Shown: positions 13,066 through 53,372, counted from the stretch's first letter. The stretch is 64,000 bases of DNA from Puniceicoccales bacterium (GCA_031266345.1 JAISBD010000009.1:3510-67509); one strand, 5' to 3'. Numbers and translations: made by a program. The notes: generated by a model from the letters alone, not told the origin.

Positions 13066-13455
13066 TTATCCCTGTGAATTTTGTAAAAATTCTTCGGGCA
13101 AGGGATTTCCTGCTCGAAAGCGTGCACCGTGGAGATTGTCAGCGGCATTATAAACATGGCGGATTATTTTCATGACCCTCGGATCATCGGTTACGCTACC
13201 AATCATCTCCCCAGGAAAATCTCGAAGCTCCTTGGGCGGTAAATATTTATCTAATATTTCCCGATCTTGCATGGACTTCCCACGCAGGGGCACTAAGCCA
13301 CTGTTAAATAGCACGGGGCCCACTTCGCCTACCCGAGCTACAGCACGCTGTGGCCCTTCTTGAGTGGAAAACTCCAGTCCCAATTCAACGCCCGGTGTTT
13401 GACTATCAACCCAAACGTAGGTCGCACTTGTAATTTTCATCTCGCTCATTTGCAC
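13066..13455 (-). CDS. hypothetical 127-129-aa protein encoded 60 nt downstream of the giant gene
   Basis: ORF in the track. An AAGGTG lies upstream of the internal ATG at 13449, so the start is either GTG 13455 or ATG 13449. No recognisable motif. Confidence 0.55.
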   Translation of the reverse strand: MQMSEMKITSATYVWVDSQTPGVELGLEFSTQEGPQRAVARVGEVGPVLFNSGLVPLRGKSMQDREILDKYLPPKELRDFPGEMIGSVTDDPRVMKIIRHVYNAADNLHGARFRAGNPLPEEFLQNSQG

Positions 13456-13515: not shown

Positions 13516-16500
13516 TCAGAGACTAACTCCAAGCTTTTCCGCTTCATGCCGCCTTTTCTCCAAAATACTTTGAAAGCGATCATGCGTTCGCGGATCTGCA
13601 AGTATTTCGCGCGCTCTCCCAATTGTACTGTGCCCCGGCTCACTCGGTCCATACTGCTGCTCCATTGCAGGCAAGACTTCATCCCGCAAGTACTCCTCCT
13701 CGTCGAAATTTTTATCAACGACGACTTCCATCTCTGAAAACGGAATAACTACGAGTTCCTTTTGCAAATCCGAACAAAATTCATTGGTCAATACCGATGT
13801 CAGTATCGCATAGGCTGGTATTTTCCCATAGAGTGCGGCCTCTCCGTAGGGATACTCGCCCCCCACTGGGCTGACTAGAGCCCACGATTCCACTGGTAAG
13901 GCACGGTTCACATCATAGGTAATAGTTTCCCTAGCCGGTGTTTTTTCCAGTGCACCATGTCGACTTATCCCGGTCAAGGCTTCTCGGCGCACCCTGCGAA
14001 CGGCGAGTACGGTCGGAGGGGGACCTTGGTCGTGCCCTGGGAACGTGGCATGGCGGAGGAGTAACTGCGTATAGGCGTAGTTCAAGGGAAGAAATTTTTT
14101 GGCAATATTTGCCTCTTTAATATACGCATCATCAACATAGTCCCCGGCATCGGGGAATGAGCCTACGTCAATCGGCTGATTCAATACGCCATCTATGACG
14201 GCTTTCCTAACAGGTACCATTTCAGCCGTGGCCATCCATTTCCTCCACACACGCCAATGAGCATTTTTGGGGCCTGAGCCTTTCCTTTCTAAGTCTCCTC
14301 CTATTTTCAGAAGAGGGCTAATCGGTTCATCCGCTATATTTGACCTAAGCTCATCTTTTCCATCTAACCAATCAAAGAATTTTTGCCCACTTTTTCCCAC
14401 AACAGTTCTGCTTGCAGCATCAAACAATTTGCCAGTCCTTACCATATCAAACGCTCCGAGCATAACCCCAGTTTCGGGTTGTATTCCTTGGCCTAGGGCA
14501 TCGAAATCTCTTTGGTCAAAAATATCCCCCAATTCCATTTGCATGCTCGCTGCGGCAACGGAATATATAAAACTATCCTTCCCTTTGCCTTTGAGCCATT
14601 GGCAATTATCCAAAATTCCAGCCAACATTTCCGGTGATTTTGCATGCAATTGTTCAATTAATCCACTTAGCTCCGCAACTTCTTCTGGAGTTTCACATAT
14701 TCCCAAAGCATCGAATGCGGCAGTGAATTCCAGCAGTAATTTCGGCTTGGGAGAAGGTGTAGAGGAGGGTAGGGGAGAGAGCGTAGGTGGTGGTGTTTCA
14801 CCGAGCAAACCGACGGTTTTCGCCTCATTCCGAAATTCATCATAGCCAGTGAGCTTGCCATAATCATCATCTGTATTTTCAATCAACTTCTTCGCTTGTT
14901 CGGCTAATTTCTCCAAAGCTTCATTTACTTGCCCTTCGCTCACACCTTCACGCAGTGTTAGGATCCGTTCCTTAGTGATACTATCTTCTTGATTGGCATC
15001 TAAAAAAGATGTTCCAAACCTAACCCGCCCTACTCTAAAAGAGTCAAGTCGCTGAATCTCCAAGCAATCCGCTTCATGCAGCAGGATGGCAATTGGATCC
15101 TTACCCGCAGCGGGAGAATCTTTGCGCTCAATTGCACTGGCGCAGCGCTTCGCTTGCTCCTGAGAAAGACCCAAATTGCCCAACTCTCTTTCAGCATTTT
15201 GGGCACTCAAGGCATCGAAGATATCAACCTCTTCTCCCTGCCTCCCAGAATCATGGAAAGTCGCTGCAGCTATGGCTAATGCGATGTCATCATCGGACAT
15301 GTCCTCGAATTCTTTAAATAGCGTGCGATACACCCTTGCCACCGCTTCTGTGACCAAAGCAACGCGCGTGCAGTGGTTTACCCCATGAACTGAGGGAAAT
15401 TTCCCAGGGTTTGCCCCAATCATTTCACCTATAACTCCGCCCATCCTAGCTTTGATCTTATCCTCAGGCATTTTTTGTTCATCCAATCTTTGAAACTCTT
15501 GATAGCGCCTTTCTACTTTCTCTGCCCAAGTGGCCCGTGCCCCCTCCCTAAGGAGCTTAAACTGCTGTTCAGTTGTCAACTTAACCCACTTGGTTTTATT
15601 TCCATTATAAATAACCTCGATGTCCTCATATTCCGGAAGAGTTTTCCCATAGTATCTCGCAGCAATACCGTCACAGAGCGACCCAACGTTTATTGGCTGC
15701 CTCGAGGCAGATGGGACTAAAGTTCCGTTTTCCTGTACCTGGTACATGCCGGGCAGACGTCCTGCGGGATCGATAACTTGGGCACCAGTTTCTAATTTTT
15801 TAAGTTGTGCTCCGCCTACCCGTACCTGATATGCGCCGGGTGGCTGCCCCGGAGGATTGGTAACTATAGCCCCAGTCCTTAGTTTTTCAAATCGCGTCCC
15901 ATTTTCCTGCACCTGGTATAGGCCGGGCGACCGTCCCACAGGATCGGCAACTAGAGCATCGGCTTCTAGCTTTTCAAATTTAAATTGCGCTCCGTCTTCC
16001 TGCACCTGATATACGCCGGGTGGCTGCCCCACGGGACAGGCAACTATAGCTCCGATCTCTACTTTTTCAAATTTAAATTGCGTTCTGTCTTCCCGTACCT
16101 CTTCCCGTACCTGGTATAGGCCGGGCAACCGTCCCACAGGATTGGCAACTAGAGCATCGGCTTTTAGTTGTTCAAATTTAAATTGTGTCCCGTTTGCCTG
16201 CACCTGATATACGCCGGGTGGCTGCTCCGGGGGATTGTCAATCACAGTCCCAATCTCTAGTTTTTTAAGTGGCGCTCCATCTCCCTGCACCTGATATACG
16301 CCGGGCGGCTGCCCCCTGGGATTAGCAACCACAACCCCAACCTCCAGTTTTTTAAGTGGCGCCGGCGCCCAACCTCCCTGTACCTGATACATGCCGGGCG
16401 GTTGCCCCGCAGGGTTAGCAATCACAGCTCCAAACTCTAATTTTTTAAGTGGCGCTCCATCTTCCTGCACCTGATACATACCGGATGGCTGCCCCGCAGG

Positions 16501-18090
16501 ACGGGCAACTATAGCCCCGATTTCTAGTTTTTTAAGTGGCACTCCATCTTCCTGCACCTGATATGCGCCGGGTGGCTGCCCCCTGGGATTAGCAACCACA
16601 GCTCCAACCTCTAGTTTTCTAAATGACATTCCGCTTGCCTGTACCAGATATACGCCAGGCAACTGCCCCGGAGGATTGGCAACCGCAGTTCCAGCCTTTA
16701 GTTTCTCAAATCCTGTTCCATCTTCCCGTACCCGATATACACCGGGTGGCTGCCCCACAGGACGGGCAACTATAGCCCCGATTTCTAGTTTTTCAAATGT
16801 AAATCCTGCCTCACCTCCCTGTAACCGATATACACCGGGTGGCTGCCCCGCAGGGTTGGTAACCATAGCTCCAGCCTCTAGTTTTTTAAGTGGCGCTCCA
16901 TCTTCCTGCACATGATATATACCAGATGGCTGCCCCGCAGGATTGACAATTAGAGCTCCAACTTCTAGTTTTCTAAGTGGCATTCCATCTCCCTGCGCCT
17001 GGTATGTACCGAGTGACTGCCCCACGGGGTTAGTAACCACAGCTCCAAACTCTAGTTTTTCAAGTTGCCCAGCACCACCTACCCGATACACCCCCGGTTC
17101 GTAAAGGCCATCTCTGTATCCCTTAGGGTTAACTATGCAGTTGCCAGCGTTTAATTTTTCTAATTTGCCGCCACCTCCCACTCGATAAACATCTTGGGGG
17201 AAATCGGCAAGCCCAGAAATGGTAGTTCCCTCCGATACTTCATACAAAATGGGCCCCTCTCCCTCATCCAGTAATATGCCAGGTTTTTCATTGTAAATGC
17301 CTACTCCTTCCACATCCTCCGAATTTTCTAAACCAATAATCTTTTCGGTGAAAATCGCACTATTGGTGCCCAGTTTTTCAAATGTGAACTCACCGTCTCT
17401 ATCTTTTACCTGGTAAATCCCTTTCGGGAAACCCACGGGATCGATGGCGCAATCCCCGACATTCATCTTTGCTATTCCACCAGCGCCAAGCACTCGGTAA
17501 ACACCCTTCTCGAGGCCAATGGGATTAGCGATGAAAGCATAGGATCCCAGTTTGTGCAATTGCCCGCCTTCCATTTTATATAGACCAGGGCTACTATAAC
17601 CGGAAGGATTCAAAATACCTCTACCCTCTGTGAGGCTTGGTTGGCGTGCCTGAACCCTTTCAGCTAAGCGTCCTTCCAGTGACTGCACTCCCGGTATGCT
17701 TGAAGCTATTTGTCTGGCTTTTTCAAAATTTCCGTGTTTCTCACACAATTCGATGCGGCGTTTGGTAGGCTCGCTTATTTGACCATATTCCGCCTCACCG
17801 ATTAATTCTTTGACACACACCCCTCTCTTTGCCAAAGACTCGCTTTCCGGCCTTAGTCCCAGAGCTATTTCCATGGCTTTAGCGAAATCTCCGTCTTTTT
17901 CAGAATTTTCAATGGAACGCTTGATAGATTCGCTTATTTGGCCATATTCCGCCTCACCAATTAGTGCCTTGACGGTTGTTTCTTCATTTCGTAAACTTAC
18001 GCTCATAATACTCTGCAGTGTAGCGTATGCCCATGAAGTGTCAATTGAATTTAACAAAACTTTTACATATTGGCCCGCAAAAGGGACCAT
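13516..18090 (-). CDS. giant multidomain protein: N-terminal ~52-aa duplication, ~22 x 29-aa repeats, HD-type phosphohydrolase motif region, Pro-rich linker, and a C-terminal domain with R/S/QxE motif spacing
   Basis: 1524-aa uninterrupted ORF. HD motifs: VNH(906)CTRV, AAATFH(946)D(947)SGR, LLH(1005)EAD(1008). Linker: GETPPPTLSPLPSSTPSPKPK (aa 1098-1117). C-terminal motifs: VLAVRR(1365-66), ES(1402)WAL, LQ(1443)KE(1445)LVVIP. The start is ambiguous (M1 at 18090 or M29 at 18006). Confidence 0.85.
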   Translation of the reverse strand: MVPFAGQYVKVLLNSIDTSWAYATLQSIMSVSLRNEETTVKALIGEAEYGQISESIKRSIENSEKDGDFAKAMEIALGLRPESESLAKRGVCVKELIGEAEYGQISEPTKRRIELCEKHGNFEKARQIASSIPGVQSLEGRLAERVQARQPSLTEGRGILNPSGYSSPGLYKMEGGQLHKLGSYAFIANPIGLEKGVYRVLGAGGIAKMNVGDCAIDPVGFPKGIYQVKDRDGEFTFEKLGTNSAIFTEKIIGLENSEDVEGVGIYNEKPGILLDEGEGPILYEVSEGTTISGLADFPQDVYRVGGGGKLEKLNAGNCIVNPKGYRDGLYEPGVYRVGGAGQLEKLEFGAVVTNPVGQSLGTYQAQGDGMPLRKLEVGALIVNPAGQPSGIYHVQEDGAPLKKLEAGAMVTNPAGQPPGVYRLQGGEAGFTFEKLEIGAIVARPVGQPPGVYRVREDGTGFEKLKAGTAVANPPGQLPGVYLVQASGMSFRKLEVGAVVANPRGQPPGAYQVQEDGVPLKKLEIGAIVARPAGQPSGMYQVQEDGAPLKKLEFGAVIANPAGQPPGMYQVQGGWAPAPLKKLEVGVVVANPRGQPPGVYQVQGDGAPLKKLEIGTVIDNPPEQPPGVYQVQANGTQFKFEQLKADALVANPVGRLPGLYQVREEVREDRTQFKFEKVEIGAIVACPVGQPPGVYQVQEDGAQFKFEKLEADALVADPVGRSPGLYQVQENGTRFEKLRTGAIVTNPPGQPPGAYQVRVGGAQLKKLETGAQVIDPAGRLPGMYQVQENGTLVPSASRQPINVGSLCDGIAARYYGKTLPEYEDIEVIYNGNKTKWVKLTTEQQFKLLREGARATWAEKVERRYQEFQRLDEQKMPEDKIKARMGGVIGEMIGANPGKFPSVHGVNHCTRVALVTEAVARVYRTLFKEFEDMSDDDIALAIAAATFHDSGRQGEEVDIFDALSAQNAERELGNLGLSQEQAKRCASAIERKDSPAAGKDPIAILLHEADCLEIQRLDSFRVGRVRFGTSFLDANQEDSITKERILTLREGVSEGQVNEALEKLAEQAKKLIENTDDDYGKLTGYDEFRNEAKTVGLLGETPPPTLSPLPSSTPSPKPKLLLEFTAAFDALGICETPEEVAELSGLIEQLHAKSPEMLAGILDNCQWLKGKGKDSFIYSVAAASMQMELGDIFDQRDFDALGQGIQPETGVMLGAFDMVRTGKLFDAASRTVVGKSGQKFFDWLDGKDELRSNIADEPISPLLKIGGDLERKGSGPKNAHWRVWRKWMATAEMVPVRKAVIDGVLNQPIDVGSFPDAGDYVDDAYIKEANIAKKFLPLNYAYTQLLLRHATFPGHDQGPPPTVLAVRRVRREALTGISRHGALEKTPARETITYDVNRALPVESWALVSPVGGEYPYGEAALYGKIPAYAILTSVLTNEFCSDLQKELVVIPFSEMEVVVDKNFDEEEYLRDEVLPAMEQQYGPSEPGHSTIGRAREILADPRTHDRFQSILEKRRHEAEKLGVSL
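15721..17628 (-). repeat. in-frame tandem coding repeats, 87-nt (29-aa) period with 31- and 35-aa variants, ~22 copies
   Basis: Consensus G(V/M)YQVQEDGAPLKKLE(I/V)GA(I/V)VANPAGQPP. The Y(Q/R)V anchors fall at aa 391, 420, 451, 480, 509, 538, 567, 598, 627, 658, 693, 724, 753 and 782, with more degenerate copies from aa ~160. Confidence 0.9.
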
Positions 18091-31693: not shown

Positions 31694-32070
31694 GGGGGTG
31701 ACATGGCTTCGACCATTAACCGTAGGAGCATATGGCATGTCGAAGATGACGGTTGGCTTCGTTAAAATCCGTTAAAATCATAAATGACAAAAACATTATG
31801 AAACTGAACTTCAGAAATGAAGTTGCACTCGCTGCTTAGCATTAATGCAGTGACATTCGTCGCAGGATGCTTGGTAATGCGAACGGGTGTGATTAACCAA
31901 GCAGGCGCCATGGGGGTGTGCAGTGGGCATGGCGTTCTACAAACGCTGCACTAAGCAAATTTCAGCATGCTGACTTGCGGAAATTGCCGACAATTAGAAA
32001 TCAGCTAAACATGTAGAAGTATTCCCTGAAAGCTAGTGGGACGCGGGTTCGATCCCCGCCACCTCCACCA
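31694..32070 (+). ncRNA. ssrA: tmRNA (SsrA)
   Basis: The 5' GGGGGUG pairs with the 3' CACCUCC-ACCA to form a 7-bp acceptor stem that includes a G3:U wobble. A T-arm GGGUUCGAUCCCC is present. An internal tag frame ends ...N-E-V-A-L-A-A-stop (TAG at 31837-31839). Confidence 0.92.
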
Positions 32071-50033: not shown

Positions 50034-53000
50034 CTAGCGACCTACCGTCCCGACGAGACTGTCCACGTACCCCGGCGAGCTGGCGCGGATAATTTCGCCA
50101 TTGATTTCGTCGATTTTGCTTTGAACACGGGGATCAAAGCCATGGATTCCCATGAACGTGCGCAGGTATTTCTCACCTTTTTTCAGGTGTTCGACGTCCT
50201 GTGCCTGTTTGCTCCTCAGCCGTCCCAGATACCACTCGCTGCCGAGCACATTTTCCCGCCGGAATAGTGCCCTAAAATGCGGAGAATCGAGCGTCATGCC
50301 GCCGAATTCCCCGCGGTGCATGATGCCCAGAAGGGCCCGCAGCGGCGGAATGGCCCATTCGATATCGCTGCTGGACATGATAATCTCGGCGGCACGCCTG
50401 TGTGATTCGACGATATTTGCCATACTGTCGGCGAAAATGGCGAAGTCTTGCTCCTCGGGGCGCAGGATCTCGTCGCCAAAGAGCGAATCGGGGAACGATA
50501 GCACGCGGCCGGCGAATATTTTTATGAATTTTTTCGTTATGCGATACCCCATGCGGCTAAACTGCACAATTCTGCCCCCGCATTCGAAGTCCTTGCAGGG
50601 CTCGAGGTAGCCGTGTTCTATTAGGAAGCGTGGGTTGCGCTCGTGAACTTGCATGCGCGACCAGATCTCCGGCAGTAGGTAGGTGATGTCGTGGGCTACG
50701 TAGAACTTCGGTCCAACGTACCCCGCCGCCGATAAAAACCCGTGGTAACCGCACAATATGAAGGATAGTAGGGCACTATTAAGGTCGTAAACCGCATTCA
50801 GAGCGTTGAATGGACCCTTCGTCATTGCGCCCTCCAGGCCGGCCCCCGTCGTGGAAGGAGATTTCCCTGTCATGCTGGAGGCGTATTCCATGAATAACTC
50901 GGGCAAATCCATGTAGTGCAGGGGATTATACACACTCAATGCCCCTATTTTCCCATCCGGCGGATTGTTCCGTCTGCCGGTCAAAATGGAGTGGACGGGG
51001 AATTTTACATCGGCGATGTTTTTCGTTTGGCTATGCAGTTTCATGCACAGCTTCGAAACGTATACCTCTTCGTGGGCGTACATATCCCGGCGATTTTGCA
51101 GGTAGCGCTCATTTTTGCTCACCTCGCCGTCGGGCATCACTCTCAGCTCCGACGGGCACACCACGTACTTCGGCCCACTGGCGTCACTGAGGAAATTGGC
51201 GAGCAATTCCTTCATTGGCTGGCTATATTTTTCAAACTGAATGCGGTTGGCCACCATGGCACGCACATCGGTCTTTGTAAGTGGTTTATAGTTGCAGGTG
51301 AAGGTGTTAGGCCGCGAAATTTCGTACTCCGTTTCGTGGTCATAGCCCGGGGTAATCGCCTCGTCCGGGCGCTGATAAAGTCGATATTCGCAGTTATGGA
51401 CGAACTTTACGGACGGATTGTCATAGGCTGGGTTGAGCCCCCCAATGGCGTTCGCCGGGAGCGTGACGGAGGAAGTGATGTCATCGGCCAACTGGAGCTT
51501 GAAGGAGGGATAAAAGTCGCCGCGCAGGGAAAAATTTCGCCGAATTTTTTCACCGGTGAAGCCGACGCGGACATACTGATCAACAAGCTTTTCTTGGCGA
51601 TAGTACAGCTCATGGCCGCGCTGCCCATTGACGATGTCGACGGAAAATTTTGACCGCCAATCTGAACCCCAACTTCCTTTGTAAAAAGTCTTTATGGCGA
51701 GGATCAATTCCTTGATGTGGGCAGGGATTGTTTTCAGCCAGCTGTTGTACTCATCCGCATATTTCTCGTTAAAATTCAGGAGTTTTATCACCGAACCGAG
51801 TGTGCGGGCGCTGTCCAGGATGGGACGATCATCCCGGGTGTCTCTATCCCGAAATCTGCCGGAAAAATCCATTTTCAAGATTTTGTCAGCGAGGGCGAAG
51901 TCACCATCGTAGTCGGATAGGAGCATGGAACCGCGTATGATCGCATCCGACAGCGACTTGGCGATTTCAGACTTCCCGCCACCGGACACCGTTGCAGGCT
52001 TGTAGCAGAAGGTACCATTCGGCGACGTACCAATCATCTTCCAACGCTCACCCCCGTGGGAGGGCCGGACCAGGTGAATGCGATACCCATTCGGCAAAAC
52101 GTATATTTTATCCAGCTCGAGGCGCAAAGTCTTCTCCCCATCGCCAAATTTCCACCTTGCCTCCATCTTTGGGAGATTAAAAGTCGCGTTACCCGGGAGG
52201 TACACTAGGGCGGAATAGTTCCTGTCAACTGCATACCCATCGCCCTGCAGCGCCATATTTTCGCCGTTATTTTTCAATAGGTCTTCAAAGGGAAGTTTAC
52301 TTTTCAAAAACTCTTCGTAATTGAATTCGTCGCCGAGGTCATAGCGCGGGAACACCAGCGCGCCGCCGGAATGTTCCTCTTCGCAGAGGCCGTACATATT
52401 AGCGGCGTAGGATAGCTGCGTTTTTATCTCCTTTTTACCATAGCCGTTGTAGCTATCGCCGATGATGGAAACAATTACACCGGAATTTGAACGTGCAACG
52501 GCACGGAATGGGCGGCCGTCATGGTATAATTCGTCCCCCCGTTCCCAGCACATGCCATCCCGTTTTTGCCGCTCGGTAGCCGCGGAGACGTGGGGGAGGC
52601 CCAGCTCTTTCTTTGTGCACTTGCGCAGCTGCGGGGCAAAAACTATGCAGCCCGTGTGCCCGGACCAGGATTGGGGATCCATGGCAGCGTCATTTTCCGG
52701 CAAAAATGGCGAGCCGGCGTTGCCAAATATGCTCTCCGTGCAGTCCAGTACACTGACCATGCTTCCTGGCAAAAATAGGCGAATTTCCATGTTTTTCGGG
52801 GAAATATTTCCACCGACTTCTGGGCATATTATCGGCTTAAAATAGGCCGAAACAAATATCTTAGCCCCAAATTCTTGCTCCGACGAAAACGGCAGCAGAA
52901 GCATGTCTTCCGGCGGATTGAATGCTAATTTGAGCATGCTGGCGAAGGCTTGTTTGGGGATTTCTTTTTTATCGCTCGGCACTGGGAAACCACCTTCGGC

Positions 53001-53372
53001 GATGTGAAAAGTACCGGCGGTTGTTCGCTTATCCGTGGAAGGATTGTTCAGGATCCCCTGGTATATGCGGTAGCTATCGACGTACTCACAGTGAAACTCA
53101 TCCCTCCCTTCCGGCAGGGATAGTAGGCGCGAAACCCCGTGTCTGTCGCAGATGAAGGAAAATTTCGGCAGCCAGGAATGATCGGGAGCAGTGCCCAAAT
53201 ATTCATTCAAAAAAGTGTTTATTCTACCATCGACGGGGGCTTGCTCCCGAGGACTTGCGGCATCGCGGCTGAGCGCGGCCAATTGCTCCCTAATTGCGGC
53301 TATGTCCTCCGCAGCAATCCCAATATTATTTCCCCTATCATCGATCCCCAATGGGCGCTCCAACTTATTCAT
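50034..53372 (-). CDS. large (1112-aa) conserved-looking cytoplasmic protein of unassigned function; tentative candidate PPi-type PEP carboxykinase
   Basis: Long uninterrupted ORF with globular, non-repetitive composition and a P-loop-like CYKPATVSGGGKSEI (aa 463-468). The PPi-PEPCK suggestion rests only on size, cytoplasmic enzyme-like character and anaerobic context. It does not rest on a motif I can verify. Confidence 0.8.
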   Translation of the reverse strand: MNKLERPLGIDDRGNNIGIAAEDIAAIREQLAALSRDAASPREQAPVDGRINTFLNEYLGTAPDHSWLPKFSFICDRHGVSRLLSLPEGRDEFHCEYVDSYRIYQGILNNPSTDKRTTAGTFHIAEGGFPVPSDKKEIPKQAFASMLKLAFNPPEDMLLLPFSSEQEFGAKIFVSAYFKPIICPEVGGNISPKNMEIRLFLPGSMVSVLDCTESIFGNAGSPFLPENDAAMDPQSWSGHTGCIVFAPQLRKCTKKELGLPHVSAATERQKRDGMCWERGDELYHDGRPFRAVARSNSGVIVSIIGDSYNGYGKKEIKTQLSYAANMYGLCEEEHSGGALVFPRYDLGDEFNYEEFLKSKLPFEDLLKNNGENMALQGDGYAVDRNYSALVYLPGNATFNLPKMEARWKFGDGEKTLRLELDKIYVLPNGYRIHLVRPSHGGERWKMIGTSPNGTFCYKPATVSGGGKSEIAKSLSDAIIRGSMLLSDYDGDFALADKILKMDFSGRFRDRDTRDDRPILDSARTLGSVIKLLNFNEKYADEYNSWLKTIPAHIKELILAIKTFYKGSWGSDWRSKFSVDIVNGQRGHELYYRQEKLVDQYVRVGFTGEKIRRNFSLRGDFYPSFKLQLADDITSSVTLPANAIGGLNPAYDNPSVKFVHNCEYRLYQRPDEAITPGYDHETEYEISRPNTFTCNYKPLTKTDVRAMVANRIQFEKYSQPMKELLANFLSDASGPKYVVCPSELRVMPDGEVSKNERYLQNRRDMYAHEEVYVSKLCMKLHSQTKNIADVKFPVHSILTGRRNNPPDGKIGALSVYNPLHYMDLPELFMEYASSMTGKSPSTTGAGLEGAMTKGPFNALNAVYDLNSALLSFILCGYHGFLSAAGYVGPKFYVAHDITYLLPEIWSRMQVHERNPRFLIEHGYLEPCKDFECGGRIVQFSRMGYRITKKFIKIFAGRVLSFPDSLFGDEILRPEEQDFAIFADSMANIVESHRRAAEIIMSSSDIEWAIPPLRALLGIMHRGEFGGMTLDSPHFRALFRRENVLGSEWYLGRLRSKQAQDVEHLKKGEKYLRTFMGIHGFDPRVQSKIDEINGEIIRASSPGYVDSLVGTVGR

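What the first reader, a model, noticed from the sequence alone, without database searches (positions are those of the whole stretch)
13711..15408. HD-type phosphohydrolase motifs and an ADP-ribosyltransferase-like R/S/QxE triad in one giant protein
Three elements lie downstream of the repeat array.
- An HD-domain signature: VNH(906)C...AAATFH(946)D(947)SGR...LLH(1005)EAD(1008).
- A Pro-rich linker at aa 1098-1117.
- A C-terminal module ending with VLAVRR(1365/66), then ES(1402)WALV 37 aa later, then LQ(1443)KE(1445)LVVIP 41 aa later.

The spacing and local context fit the three-region mono-ADP-ribosyltransferase fold: a beta-strand followed by Arg, then a Ser-containing strand, then Q/E-x-E followed by hydrophobic residues and Pro. 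C3-type toxins, for example, have QxE followed by LLP.

A phosphohydrolase or phosphodiesterase module preceding a mART module is the order seen in Legionella SidE-family phosphoribosyl-ubiquitin ligases. The combination could therefore be a two-step NAD-dependent modification enzyme fused to a binding array. I cannot tell whether the HD region is homologous to the SidE PDE, and the ART assignment is motif-level only.
Basis: partly seen in the sequence, partly recalled or inferred. Interest (0 to 1): 0.8.

Follow-up and report, generated by a model that had tools for sequence, protein, structure and literature searches.

The report
HD phosphohydrolase plus divergent ADP-ribosyltransferase-like toxin
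The C-terminal half of a giant protein from a termite-gut-type verrucomicrobium joins a metal-type HD phosphohydrolase, whose nearest known relatives are Legionella SidE/lpg1496 phosphodiesterases, to a previously unannotated 400-residue domain that is probably a very divergent ADP-ribosyltransferase and always travels with a small partner gene, like a toxin with its antidote.

Summary
In detail: every residue named sits where stated in a 1,524-aa ORF (13516-18090, minus strand), and all are conserved in homologues.

**HD module (aa 804-1095).** It has an intact H..HD..H..D site. Its nearest relatives by profile and by predicted fold are Legionella lpg1496 and the SidE phosphodiesterase. It misses the Pfam thresholds and, unlike lpg1496, keeps the classical metal site.

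**C-terminal module (aa 1121-1524).**
- It is one compact domain, not 170 aa. It belongs to a rare family of 35 representatives, and those with a source name are all Puniceicoccales.
- The triad is conserved: R1365 and S1402 in 25/25 sequences, E1445 in 22/23.
- No Pfam family and no solved ART structure matches it.
- Its predicted fold matches two Bacillus phage proteins with textbook R-S-ExE motifs, whose relatives nearly reach the Pfam DRAT threshold.
- Profile comparison aligns the triads in register (P = 0.008; 0 of 200 shuffles).
- ART-like is therefore probable (about 0.6), not proven.

**New finding.** A conserved 119-136-aa gene lies immediately downstream of this module in 6 of 8 loci, which looks like an immunity protein or chaperone.

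**SidE analogy.** The HD and ART-like modules shuffle independently, so a coupled SidE-type two-step reaction is possible but unlikely (about 0.15).

The parts
13516..18090 (-). Giant ORF of 1,524 aa. It is identical from M29 onward to NCBI MDR1255551.1, 'hypothetical protein LBJ94_01305', from a Puniceicoccales MAG.
17701..17979 (-). Duplicated N-terminal element of about 40 aa (aa 38-76 and 92-130, 'LIGEAEYGQISE...'). It resembles the N-terminus of P0002, another carrier of the C-terminal module. It may be a shared leader.
   Evidence: BLASTP E=0.002; weak
15691..17583 (-). Repeat array (aa ~170-800) of 29-35-aa units of the form GAxVxNPxGQPPGVYQVQEDGxxLKKLE. Function untested.
   Evidence: tandem periods 87/93/105 nt
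14806..15681 (-). HD-superfamily phosphohydrolase module (aa 804-1095). A small N-terminal alpha/beta part is followed by an all-helical HD core. The core carries H902, H906, R909, H946-D947, D956, H1005 and D1008.
14740..14799 (-). Pro/Ser/Thr-rich linker (aa 1098-1117).
14050..14730 (-). Helical lobe of the C-terminal module (aa 1121-1347). It includes the conserved NCxWL, MEL and YAYTQ motifs.
13711..14019 (-). Beta-rich putative catalytic core (aa 1358-1460). R1365 is encoded at nt 13996-13998, E1401-S1402 at 13885-13890, and Q1443-x-E1445 at 13756-13764. Each lies on a predicted beta-strand.
13519..13710 (-). C-terminal helices of the module (aa 1461-1524), including the conserved 'QYG' motif.
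13066..13455 (-). Small partner ORF of 129 aa as listed; the real start is probably M3 or M6. It lies about 60 nt downstream on the same strand. Homologues of 119-136 aa follow the C-terminal module in 6 of 8 loci examined. No known family matches it.

Best explanation
The gene encodes a modular secreted-toxin or effector-type protein. It comes from a Puniceicoccales (Verrucomicrobiota) bacterium of the termite-gut kind. An N-terminal leader and a long repeat array carry two enzymatic cassettes that are shuffled independently.

**Cassette 1 (aa 804-1095).** This is an HD-superfamily, presumably metal-dependent phosphohydrolase or phosphodiesterase. It sits on the branch of the HD fold that also holds Legionella lpg1496 and the SidE/DupA phosphodiesterases. 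The metal site and the fold are shown; the substrate is unknown.

**Cassette 2 (aa 1121-1524).** This is a 400-aa helical-lobe plus beta-core domain. It is most likely a very divergent R-S-(Q/E)xE ADP-ribosyltransferase or NAD-consuming enzyme, with these inferred roles:
- R1365 binds the NAD phosphates.
- S1402 holds the ribose.
- E1445 is the catalytic residue.

**Partner gene.** A small protein encoded immediately downstream is its dedicated partner. It is most simply an immunity protein that blocks the enzyme in the producer, or alternatively a secretion chaperone.

**Relation between the cassettes.** In this protein the two cassettes most likely act as two separate activities delivered together. 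An obligatory two-step machine is less likely.

**Shown:** motif conservation, the module boundaries, the fold of the HD module, the gene linkage, and the rarity and lineage restriction of the family.
**Inferred:** NAD use, toxicity, delivery, and the target.
For: **HD module**
- Pfam HD aligns over profile positions 3-113 of 116.
- The H..HD..H..D residues are invariant in 8 homologues.
- AlphaFold2 model: pLDDT 87, pTM 0.86.
- Foldseek top hits are lpg1496 5t8c (E 3.3e-3) and SidE 5zq2/5zq5/5zq6. HD hydrolases 2pq7 and YpgQ follow, all at probability 1.00 or close to it.
- The module profile hits lpg1496 at E 0.011.

**C-terminal module**
- The family has only 35 representatives among 1.84 billion proteins. 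Every member with a source name is from Puniceicoccales.
- R1365 and S1402 are invariant; E1445 is E in 22/23.
- The model is confident (pLDDT 88, pTM 0.91). R, S and E each lie on a beta-strand, and the R strand is followed by a helix.
- Foldseek against BFVD gives probability 1.00 hits at E about 4e-4 to Bacillus phage SP-15 gp258 and to a 532-aa protein that matches HSE3 gp023.
- Both phage proteins carry LFRG / SSFS / ExE-VVLLGG motifs.
- Their homologues P0050 and P0051 hit Pfam DRAT at E 1.9e-5 and 6e-5, scoring 24.5 and 22.8 bits against a cutoff of 25.
- hhalign of the two families puts R on R, S on S and E on E, and YAYTQLL on MYxxTQExL. With six phage-family sequences P = 0.039, with 2 of 200 shuffles reaching the score.
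- Adding a seventh member raises this to P = 0.0081, with 0 of 200 shuffles reaching the score.
- P0051 has 'ALESWSID', like the query family's 'AESWS'.

**Partner gene**
- Homologous small ORFs lie 3-60 nt downstream on the same strand in the window, L087, L088, L090, L091 and L093. Pairwise E values reach 1e-40.
- The upstream proteins in these loci share only the C-terminal module.

**Effector or toxin milieu**
- An IpgD-family gene lies next to P0017.
- A WHH/Colicin-DNase toxin with a SUKH immunity gene lies near P0031.
Against: - Foldseek of the C-terminal model against 350,542 PDB chains found nothing. The best E was 2.4 with TM about 0.12. No ART and no SidE mART chain appeared among the 50 matches listed, of 66 with E <= 10.
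- No Pfam or PHROG family hits any of the 29 family members.
- The link to ARTs is transitive, and each step is weak:
  - the BFVD matches have TM only 0.26-0.38;
  - the DRAT hits are just below the curated cutoff and occur in 2 of 6 sequences;
  - the hhalign P values are 0.04 and 0.008, after about six profile comparisons in all.
- S1402 starts its predicted strand and no helix follows it. As I recall them, classical ARTs have S-T-S at a strand end leading into a helix.
- No signal peptide or recognised secretion domain was found in the Pfam and NCBIfam scans. No secretion-system gene was found among the 20 window ORFs scanned.
- Two family members (P0013, P0017) lack the partner gene.
Confidence: 0.55

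Rival explanations
1. SidE-like coupled chemistry. The C-terminal module ADP-ribosylates a target with NAD. The upstream HD/PDE module then cleaves the ADP-ribose pyrophosphate. This leaves a phosphoribosyl mark or cross-links the target to a second protein.
For: - The order is phosphodiesterase-like module, then linker, then ART-like module, on one polypeptide. That is the order reported for SidE ligases.
- The HD module's nearest sequence and fold neighbours are lpg1496 and the SidE PDE.
- SidE PDEs are themselves described as HD-like (PMC6941232).
- The same two-module fusion recurs in P0001.
Against: - Of 35 family representatives, the only one seen to carry the HD module is the query's own database copy, P0009. 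P0001 carries it too. The 16 other sequences read and P0002/P0003 have different N-terminal regions.
- The HD module is also fused to unrelated partners (P0004, P0005/6, P0007).
- The HD module keeps the metal ligands H946/D947, where lpg1496 has S-V. Where lpg1496 has 'GRE', the query has Q951 in place of the Glu; that this Glu corresponds to SdeA E340 is my inference.
- The motif is QxE, not ExE.
- The C-terminal model does not match the SidE chains, which as I understand contain the mART domain.
- The module has its own immunity-like partner gene.
Confidence: 0.15
2. The C-terminal module is not an ADP-ribosyltransferase. It is a toxin or effector domain of a so far unsolved fold. R1365, E1401-S1402 and E1445 would then serve another chemistry or structural role, and the match to the phage R-S-ExE proteins would reflect mainly the shared helical lobe.
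For: - No solved structure resembles the confident model.
- No ART family is detected directly.
- The BFVD matches have low TM scores (0.26-0.38) and high rmsd, and the tool does not report which residues were aligned.
- The phage family's own ART status rests on sub-threshold DRAT hits and on motifs. Its profile finds no ART in the PDB.
Against: - hhalign aligns the beta-core itself, 114 columns with the three motifs in register. The score rises when a further phage member is added, and it beats all 200 column shuffles.
- The triad has ART-typical order and spacing (37 and 43 residues) and is near-invariant.
Confidence: 0.3
3. On role rather than chemistry: the protein is an effector aimed at a eukaryotic host cell, such as a termite-gut flagellate, and the small downstream protein is a secretion chaperone. 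This contrasts with an interbacterial toxin paired with an immunity protein.
For: - The closest genomes are termite-gut Puniceicoccales MAGs.
- Termite-gut verrucomicrobia include intranuclear symbionts of flagellates (PMC8204192).
- A family member sits next to an IpgD-type gene. From memory, IpgD/SopB are phosphoinositide-phosphatase effectors of eukaryote-infecting bacteria.
- The HD module's relatives lpg1496 and SidE are Legionella effectors.
- P0007 joins the HD module to a region that looks like a PI-kinase, judged by eye only.
Against: - A tightly linked gene that co-varies with the C-terminal domain is the signature of polymorphic toxin-immunity cassettes. One family member lies beside a WHH/SUKH toxin-immunity pair.
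- No secretion-system genes were found among the 20 window ORFs scanned.
- The lifestyle of the source organism is unknown.
Confidence: 0.35

Closest known systems
Legionella lpg1496 and the SidE/SdeA/DupA phosphodiesterase (PDE) domain (Pfam PF12252; PDB 5t8c, 5bu1, 5zq2-5zq6)
   Same: - Both are all-helical HD-like folds, and these are the top sequence-profile and fold matches.
- They share an HGxxHxxR motif at the first helix, and a conserved His at the position of LLH(1005)EAD.
- In SidE the domain is placed N-terminal to an ART domain.
   Different: - Scores are far below family thresholds: 13-18 bits in homologues against a cutoff of 25, and no hit for the query itself.
- The query keeps the classical metal-binding H946-D947, where lpg1496 has S-V.
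- Where lpg1496 has 'GRE', the query has Q951 in place of the Glu, while P0005/6/42 have E. That this Glu corresponds to SdeA E340 is my inference.
- The source organism is a verrucomicrobium, not Legionella.
Classical HD phosphohydrolases (Pfam PF01966; for example PDB 2pq7, B. subtilis YpgQ 5dqw)
   Same: - The full H..HD..H..D ligand set is present.
- The Pfam alignment covers nearly the whole profile.
- Foldseek gives probability 1.00.
   Different: - The score is below the Pfam gathering threshold (14.9 bits against 22).
- There is an extra conserved N-terminal subdomain of about 100 aa ('YGKTLPEYEDIEV...').
- The module occurs only in a handful of effector-like multidomain proteins.
Phage R-S-ExE proteins of the SP-15 gp258 / HSE3 gp023 family, and DraT-type ARTs (Pfam DRAT PF07357)
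   Same: - Both have a helical lobe followed by a beta-core.
- The motifs correspond: Y-x-x-TQ-x-x-L helix, then strand-R, then S-[WF]-S, then xE-hydrophobic strand.
- Foldseek E is about 4e-4; hhalign P = 0.008 with the triads in register.
   Different: - Sequence identity is only about 16%.
- The query family has QxE rather than ExE, ES-W rather than SS-F, and 'VR-x-V' rather than 'FRG'.
- It is encoded in bacterial chromosomes with a partner gene, not in phage genomes.
- The phage family itself is unannotated, and its ART status is inferred.
Polymorphic toxin / immunity cassettes with C-terminal ART toxin domains (as surveyed in PMC3482391; listed but not read here, so the comparison is from memory)
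   Same: - The C-terminal enzymatic domain is attached to varied N-terminal regions.
- A small cognate gene lies immediately downstream and co-varies with the domain.
   Different: - No recognised trafficking domain such as RHS, PAAR, LXG or haemagglutinin repeats was hit in the Pfam or NCBIfam scans, and no signal peptide was seen by eye.
- The partner matches no Pfam family or PDB sequence.
- Toxicity is untested.

Membership tests
HD superfamily (PF01966) | Conserved H...HD...D metal-ligand motif | tested here: met
   H906, H946-D947, H1005 and D1008 are present. They are invariant in 8 homologues.
HD superfamily (PF01966) | Score above the Pfam gathering threshold | tested here: not met
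   The query scores 14.9 bits against a cutoff of 22 (E 0.032). The best homologue, P0004, scores 21.0 bits. The alignment nevertheless spans profile positions 3-113 of 116.
HD superfamily (PF01966) | All-helical HD fold | tested here: met
   The AF2 model has pLDDT 87. Foldseek gives probability 1.00 or close to it for 2pq7, YpgQ, Ddi2, lpg1496 and SidE PDE.
SidE-type PDE (PF12252) | Profile match above the gathering threshold | tested here: not met
   The query has no hit at E <= 1. Homologues P0007, P0004 and P0006 score 18.0, 14.8 and 13.6 bits against a cutoff of 25.
SidE-type PDE (PF12252) | Closest structural neighbours are SidE/lpg1496 PDE domains | tested here: met
   The top five Foldseek PDB hits are 5t8c, 5zq2, 5zq5 (two chains) and 5zq6, at E 0.003-0.04 and TMq 0.41-0.47. 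The margin over generic HD proteins is small.
SidE-type PDE (PF12252) | Catalytic His-Glu-His triad (SdeA H277, E340, H407; PMC6941232) | tested here: inconclusive
   Judged through the lpg1496 alignment. Candidate His residues are H902/H906 and H1005. Where lpg1496 has 'GRE', the query has Q951 in place of the Glu, and P0005/6/42 have E. That this Glu corresponds to SdeA E340 is my inference. No direct residue alignment to SdeA was available.
SidE family phosphoribosyl-ubiquitin ligases | PDE domain followed by an mART domain with R-S-ExE in one polypeptide | tested here: inconclusive
   The order, HD/PDE-like then ART-like, is met. The motif is QxE rather than ExE. The C-terminal model does not match the SidE chains 5zq2-5zq6, which I understand to include the mART. 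No DUB domain was found.
SidE family phosphoribosyl-ubiquitin ligases | ADP-ribosylation of ubiquitin Arg42 and phosphoribosyl transfer to substrate Ser | not testable with these tools
   Biochemical assays are required.
R-S-E ADP-ribosyltransferases (ADP-ribosyl clan) | Arg, Ser and [QE]xE on successive strands, in that order, with 30-60-residue spacing, conserved across the family | tested here: met
   R1365 25/25, S1402 25/25, E1445 22/23. Spacings are 37 and 43 residues. Each lies on a predicted strand.
R-S-E ADP-ribosyltransferases (ADP-ribosyl clan) | Significant profile match to a curated ART family | tested here: inconclusive
   No direct match. An indirect chain exists: hhalign to the SP-15 gp258 family at P 0.039, improving to 0.0081, and members of that family hit DRAT at 24.5 and 22.8 bits against a cutoff of 25.
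R-S-E ADP-ribosyltransferases (ADP-ribosyl clan) | ART fold shown by similarity to solved ART structures | tested here: not met
   Foldseek against the PDB: best E 2.4, and no ART among the 50 matches listed, of 66 with E <= 10. The only confident fold matches are uncharacterised phage models.
R-S-E ADP-ribosyltransferases (ADP-ribosyl clan) | NAD binding and ADP-ribosyl transfer or NAD hydrolysis | not testable with these tools
   Biochemical assays are required.
Polymorphic toxin - immunity cassette | The same C-terminal domain on different N-terminal regions, with a small co-directional gene immediately downstream that co-varies with it | tested here: met
   Architectures. Partner ORF present in 6 of 8 loci, with gaps of 3-60 nt and pairwise tblastn E values from 3e-6 to 1e-40; window against L091 gave no pairwise hit.
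Polymorphic toxin - immunity cassette | Recognisable secretion or trafficking domain or signal | tested here: not met
   No Pfam or NCBIfam trafficking domain was found. No signal peptide is evident by eye in the N-terminus. There is only a weakly shared 40-aa N-terminal element.

The most novel reading that the evidence does not exclude
A SidE-type two-step NAD-dependent modification system has arisen, or been assembled, outside Legionella, in a verrucomicrobial associate of termite-gut protists. In this reading a divergent QxE ADP-ribosyltransferase marks a target. The adjacent metal-type HD/PDE module then converts the ADP-ribose into a phosphoribosyl mark or cross-link. A dedicated 125-aa inhibitor keeps the enzyme silent in the producer.
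Probability: 0.12. Interest if true: 0.85.

Novelty: new variant of a known kind. Interest (0 to 1): 0.55.

Why it matters
**What is new**
- If the C-terminal module is an ART, it defines a new and very divergent branch of the ADP-ribosyltransferase superfamily. The branch has QxE, ES-W and a large helical lobe. No Pfam model covers it and no solved relative was found. It is linked to unannotated phage proteins, one of whose homologues (P0049) carries an InPase domain that I recall from phage polyvalent proteins.
- It also comes with a new small partner, an immunity or chaperone protein.

**Why the HD fusion is of interest**
- Its fusion to an HD phosphodiesterase, whose nearest relatives are the Legionella SidE/lpg1496 PDEs, is to my knowledge the only arrangement outside Legionella that resembles the phosphoribosyl-ubiquitination machinery. 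I did not search the literature for other cases.
- That makes a cheap experiment worthwhile: measure the adduct mass with and without the HD site.

**Why it matters either way**
- The family is a marker of an unexplored effector or toxin repertoire in termite-gut Puniceicoccales. The same repertoire includes IpgD-like genes and HD fusions to a module that looks like a PI-kinase by eye.

Tried and rejected
**Searches on the C-terminal family that found nothing**
- Direct PDB sequence searches with the whole protein and with the family profile returned only noise.
- Foldseek of the C-terminal model against the PDB gave nothing. The recurring Rad6/UBC and PII hits at E 4-9 with TM about 0.2 were judged to be noise.
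- Pfam and PHROG scans of all 29 family members found no recurrent family.
- tblastn of the module against 50,697 phage records gave no match.
- Scans of the metagenome collection (two) and the viral collection (one) for more loci found no confirmed relatives.

**Follow-up of the phage hits**
- I located SP-15 gp258 by reading four 50-kb stretches covering the first 200 kb of the 222-kb genome.
- The protein itself has no Pfam, PHROG or PDB match.
- hhalign of the family against the single sequence was uninformative.
- The link only emerged from the phage protein's homologues.

**Idea tested and not supported**
- I thought the other partners of the HD module might be classical ARTs related to this module. 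These were the P0004 C-terminus ('KVQRG..SSTSLG..NEREF') and the P0005/6 N-terminus.
- hhalign gave P 0.33-0.67, and PDB searches were empty. This remains an eye-level impression only.

**Other checks**
- A MuF (phage head morphogenesis) domain identity was considered. This was prompted by the name of one BFVD hit; no test was made. PMC9503650 notes that Alt/VIP2-type ARTs are often fused to MuF.
- A literature search for 'HD-CE' (Pfam PF24391) found nothing relevant.
- Synteny: the giant gene is absent next to gyrA-OGG in the closest relatives.
Full report
**1. Observation**

The finding lies in one ORF, window 13516-18090 on the minus strand, encoding 1,524 aa. The coordinates 13711-15408 correspond to aa 895-1460.
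- H906 in SVHGVNHCTR, H946-D947 in AAATFHDSGR, and H1005 and D1008 in LLHEADCLE.
- The Pro-rich stretch at aa 1098-1117.
- R1365/R1366 in TVLAVRRV, S1402 in VESWALV, and Q1443 and E1445 in LQKELVVIP.

The protein is already in public databases from M29 onward. It is NCBI MDR1255551.1, 'hypothetical protein LBJ94_01305 [Puniceicoccales bacterium]'.

The surrounding genes are housekeeping genes: topA, a MoxR ATPase, DUF502, OGG, gyrA, gyrB, trigger factor and GAPDH. GyrA is 90% identical to termite-gut Puniceicoccales MAGs. In those close relatives the block TF-gyrB-gyrA-OGG is syntenic, but the giant gene is absent. It is therefore an accessory gene.

**2. The HD module (aa 804-1095)**

*Sequence evidence.*
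- Pfam HD aligns to aa 905-1010 over profile positions 3-113 of 116. The score is below threshold: E 0.032, 14.9 bits against a cutoff of 22.
- The database search found only eight relatives of the C-terminal 664 aa, and a later profile search added two more HD-module sequences. In total seven homologues carry the HD module.
- These relatives show that the module is a mobile cassette:
  - with the same C-terminal module in P0001;
  - with a different C-terminal region in P0004;
  - at the C-terminus of P0005 and P0006;
  - behind a transmembrane segment and ahead of another region in P0007.
- In these homologues, H902, H906, R909, H946, D947, S948, G949, R950, D956, H1005, E1006, D1008, E1011 and R1014 are invariant.
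- The homologues give weak hits both to Pfam HD (best E 4e-4) and to SidE_PDE (E 0.002-0.05).
- A profile of the module finds Legionella lpg1496 first among all PDB sequences, at E 0.011. The next hit is a generic HD hydrolase at E 0.6.

*Structural evidence.*
- The AlphaFold2 model has pLDDT 87 and pTM 0.86.
- By Foldseek it is closest to lpg1496 (5t8c, E 3.3e-3, TM 0.41).
- Four SidE chains follow (E 0.02-0.04, TMq 0.41-0.47).
- Classical HD proteins such as 2pq7 and YpgQ come next.

*Interpretation.*
- The literature describes the SidE PDE as HD-like, with catalytic residues H277, E340 and H407 (PMC6941232).
- In the lpg1496 alignment the shared motif is HGxxHxxR. lpg1496 has S-V where the query has H946-D947.
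- Where lpg1496 has 'GRE', the query has Q951 in place of the Glu; that this Glu corresponds to SdeA E340 is my inference.
- My conclusion is that this is a real HD-superfamily phosphohydrolase with an intact metal site, sitting nearest the lpg1496/SidE-PDE branch.
- It is not a member of that family.

**3. The C-terminal module (aa 1121-1524)**

*Family and conservation.*
- An exhaustive profile search of 1.84 billion representative proteins found only 35 relatives.
- Every relative that carries a source name is from Puniceicoccales.
- In a 29-sequence alignment, conservation is as follows: R1365 25/25, E1401 24/25, S1402 25/25, W1403 22/25, Y1427 25/26, Q1443 20/23, E1445 22/23.

*Predicted structure.*
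- AlphaFold2 predicts one compact domain with pLDDT 88 and pTM 0.91.
- It has a helical lobe (module residues 1-227), a seven-strand region (240-339) and three final helices.
- R1365, S1402 and E1445 each lie on a strand, and a helix follows the R strand.

*Negative results.*
- Foldseek against the PDB found nothing. The best E was 2.4, with no ART and no SidE mART chain among the 50 matches listed, of 66 with E <= 10.
- Neither Pfam nor PHROGs recognises any family member.

*The phage connection.*
- Foldseek against predicted viral structures gave probability 1.00 matches. The top two were a Bacillus phage SP-15 protein of 469 aa (E 4.1e-4) and a 532-aa protein (E 4.3e-4).
- Weaker matches went to large multidomain phage proteins.
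- I located the SP-15 protein as gp258 (KT624200, 191139-192548).
- The 532-aa protein matches the length and family of vB_BceM-HSE3 gp023.
- Both have textbook R-S-ExE motifs: LYLFRG / QPMSSFS / DEAEVVLLGG, and HLFRGM / QPISSFS / DEEEFTIIGG.
- Homologues of gp258 include P0050 and P0051.
  - P0050 aligns to gp258 at E 2e-26 across the motif region.
  - P0050 and P0051 hit Pfam DRAT, the dinitrogenase reductase ADP-ribosyltransferase family, at E 1.9e-5 and 6e-5, just under the curated cutoff.
  - A further homologue, P0049, carries an InPase domain, which I recall as typical of phage 'polyvalent' injected proteins.
  - ARTs are a hub domain in such proteins (PMC5512222).

*Profile-profile comparison.*
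- hhalign of the query family against this phage family aligns 113-114 columns.
- The register puts R1365 on the RG arginine, S1402 on the SSFS serine and E1445 on the second Glu of ExE. It also puts YAYTQLL on MYxxTQExL and IPAYAILTS on VPRERVLST.
- With six phage-family sequences the score is 22.3 and P = 0.039. Two of 200 column shuffles reach it.
- With HSE3 gp023 added the score is 26.8 and P = 0.0081. None of 200 shuffles reaches it; the shuffle maximum is 21.9.
- Plain HMM searches against about 2,000 decoy ORFs rank members of the other family among the first non-self hits in both directions, but at non-significant E values.

*Assessment.*
- I read this as probable, not proven, membership of the R-S-E ART superfamily, at about 0.6.
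- The link is transitive, and each step is weak on its own.
- The PDB fold search is a real negative.

**4. A partner gene**

A small ORF at 13066-13455 lies about 60 nt downstream on the same strand. Homologous ORFs of 119-136 aa lie 3-33 nt downstream of the gene carrying this module in five other loci:
- L087 (P0003), L088 (P0015) and L093 (P0011), at 45-52% identity.
- L090 (P0030) and L091 (P0031), the most divergent members, at 24-32% identity and E 1e-8 to 1e-16.

The upstream proteins in these loci share nothing but the C-terminal module. Two loci, P0013 and P0017, form a subclade that lacks the partner. In P0017 the catalytic-position Glu is Asp.

The partner matches no Pfam family and no PDB sequence of substance. 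The HD module does not bring this partner with it, as the P0004 and P0007 loci show.

A domain-linked, co-varying downstream gene is the classic signature of a toxin domain with its immunity protein. A secretion chaperone is the main alternative.

Context hints point in both directions:
- A WHH/Colicin-DNase toxin with a SUKH immunity gene lies near P0031.
- An IpgD-family gene lies next to P0017; from memory, IpgD/SopB are phosphoinositide-phosphatase effectors of eukaryote-infecting bacteria.
- Termite-gut verrucomicrobia include intranuclear symbionts of flagellates (PMC8204192).

**5. Mechanism**

The best reading is a multidomain delivered protein. A leader and a repeat array carry two independent enzymatic cassettes: an HD phosphohydrolase and an ART-like, NAD-using toxin or effector domain. 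The small partner keeps the latter in check.

The SidE-like coupled reading, ADP-ribosylation followed by phosphodiester cleavage, remains possible.
- For: the module order and the HD module's nearest relatives fit.
- Against: the fusion is the exception, seen only in the query and P0001. Each cassette occurs with other partners. The HD site is of the metal type. The motif is QxE. The ART-like model does not resemble the SidE mART.
- I put the coupled reading at about 0.15.

**6. Novelty and verdict**

What is new:
- an unannotated, lineage-restricted domain family that is probably a very divergent ART, related to unannotated phage proteins;
- its conserved partner gene;
- its fusion to an HD module from the lpg1496/SidE-PDE neighbourhood.

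This is a new variant of known kinds, namely ART toxin with immunity and HD phosphohydrolase, rather than something categorically new. Interest is moderate, and would be high if the coupled chemistry proved real.

Noticed in passing
window 13066-13455 (-): A small ORF immediately downstream of the giant gene has homologues directly downstream of the same C-terminal module in five other loci. It matches no known family. It is probably an immunity protein or a chaperone.
   Followed up: yes
window 17701-17979 (-), aa 38-130 of the giant protein: A 40-aa N-terminal element ('LIGEAEYGQISE...') is duplicated. It resembles the N-terminus of P0002, another carrier of the C-terminal module (BLASTP E 0.002). 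It may be a shared leader or targeting element.
   Followed up: partly
window 15691-17583 (-): A long array of 29-35-aa repeats (GAxVxNPxGQPPGVYQVQEDGxxLKKLE) gave only insignificant Pfam, NCBIfam or PDB sequence matches (E 0.086-0.7). Its fold and function are unknown.
   Followed up: no
window 31694-32070 (+): A tmRNA gene with tag peptide DKNIMKLNFRNEVALAA.
   Followed up: no
window 50034-53372 (-): An 1,112-aa ORF has no Pfam hit at E <= 1e-5, in a stretch of otherwise ordinary metabolic genes.
   Followed up: no
L092 756-2756 (Puniceicoccales MAG JAITBQ010000070.1): The gene directly upstream of family member P0017 hits Pfam IpgD (PF05925). From memory, IpgD/SopB are phosphoinositide-phosphatase effectors that act on eukaryotic cells. 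This hints at a host-directed effector repertoire.
   Followed up: no
L091 1-653 and 1041-1885: A WHH/Colicin-DNase toxin fragment, a SUKH-family immunity gene and an IS630-type transposase lie 1-3 kb upstream of family member P0031.
   Followed up: no
P0007 (L082 10001-12301): The HD module is also fused, behind a transmembrane segment, to a C-terminal region containing 'DRHSGN...IDQDISF'. This looks like a PI3/4-kinase catalytic motif by eye. Pfam did not confirm it.
   Followed up: no
L001, L002, L005 (closest relatives, GyrA 90% identical): TF-gyrB-gyrA-OGG is syntenic with the window. The giant gene, its partner and the MoxR/DUF502 block are absent downstream of OGG. The gene is therefore strain- or species-specific.
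   Followed up: partly
L086 41139-42548 and L094 3026-4624 (Bacillus phages SP-15 and vB_BceM-HSE3): Two phage 'hypothetical proteins' carry clear R-S-ExE motifs. They belong to an unannotated family whose bacterial and metagenomic relatives include fusions to topoisomerase IB and InPase. This is probably an undescribed family of phage ADP-ribosyltransferases.
   Followed up: partly
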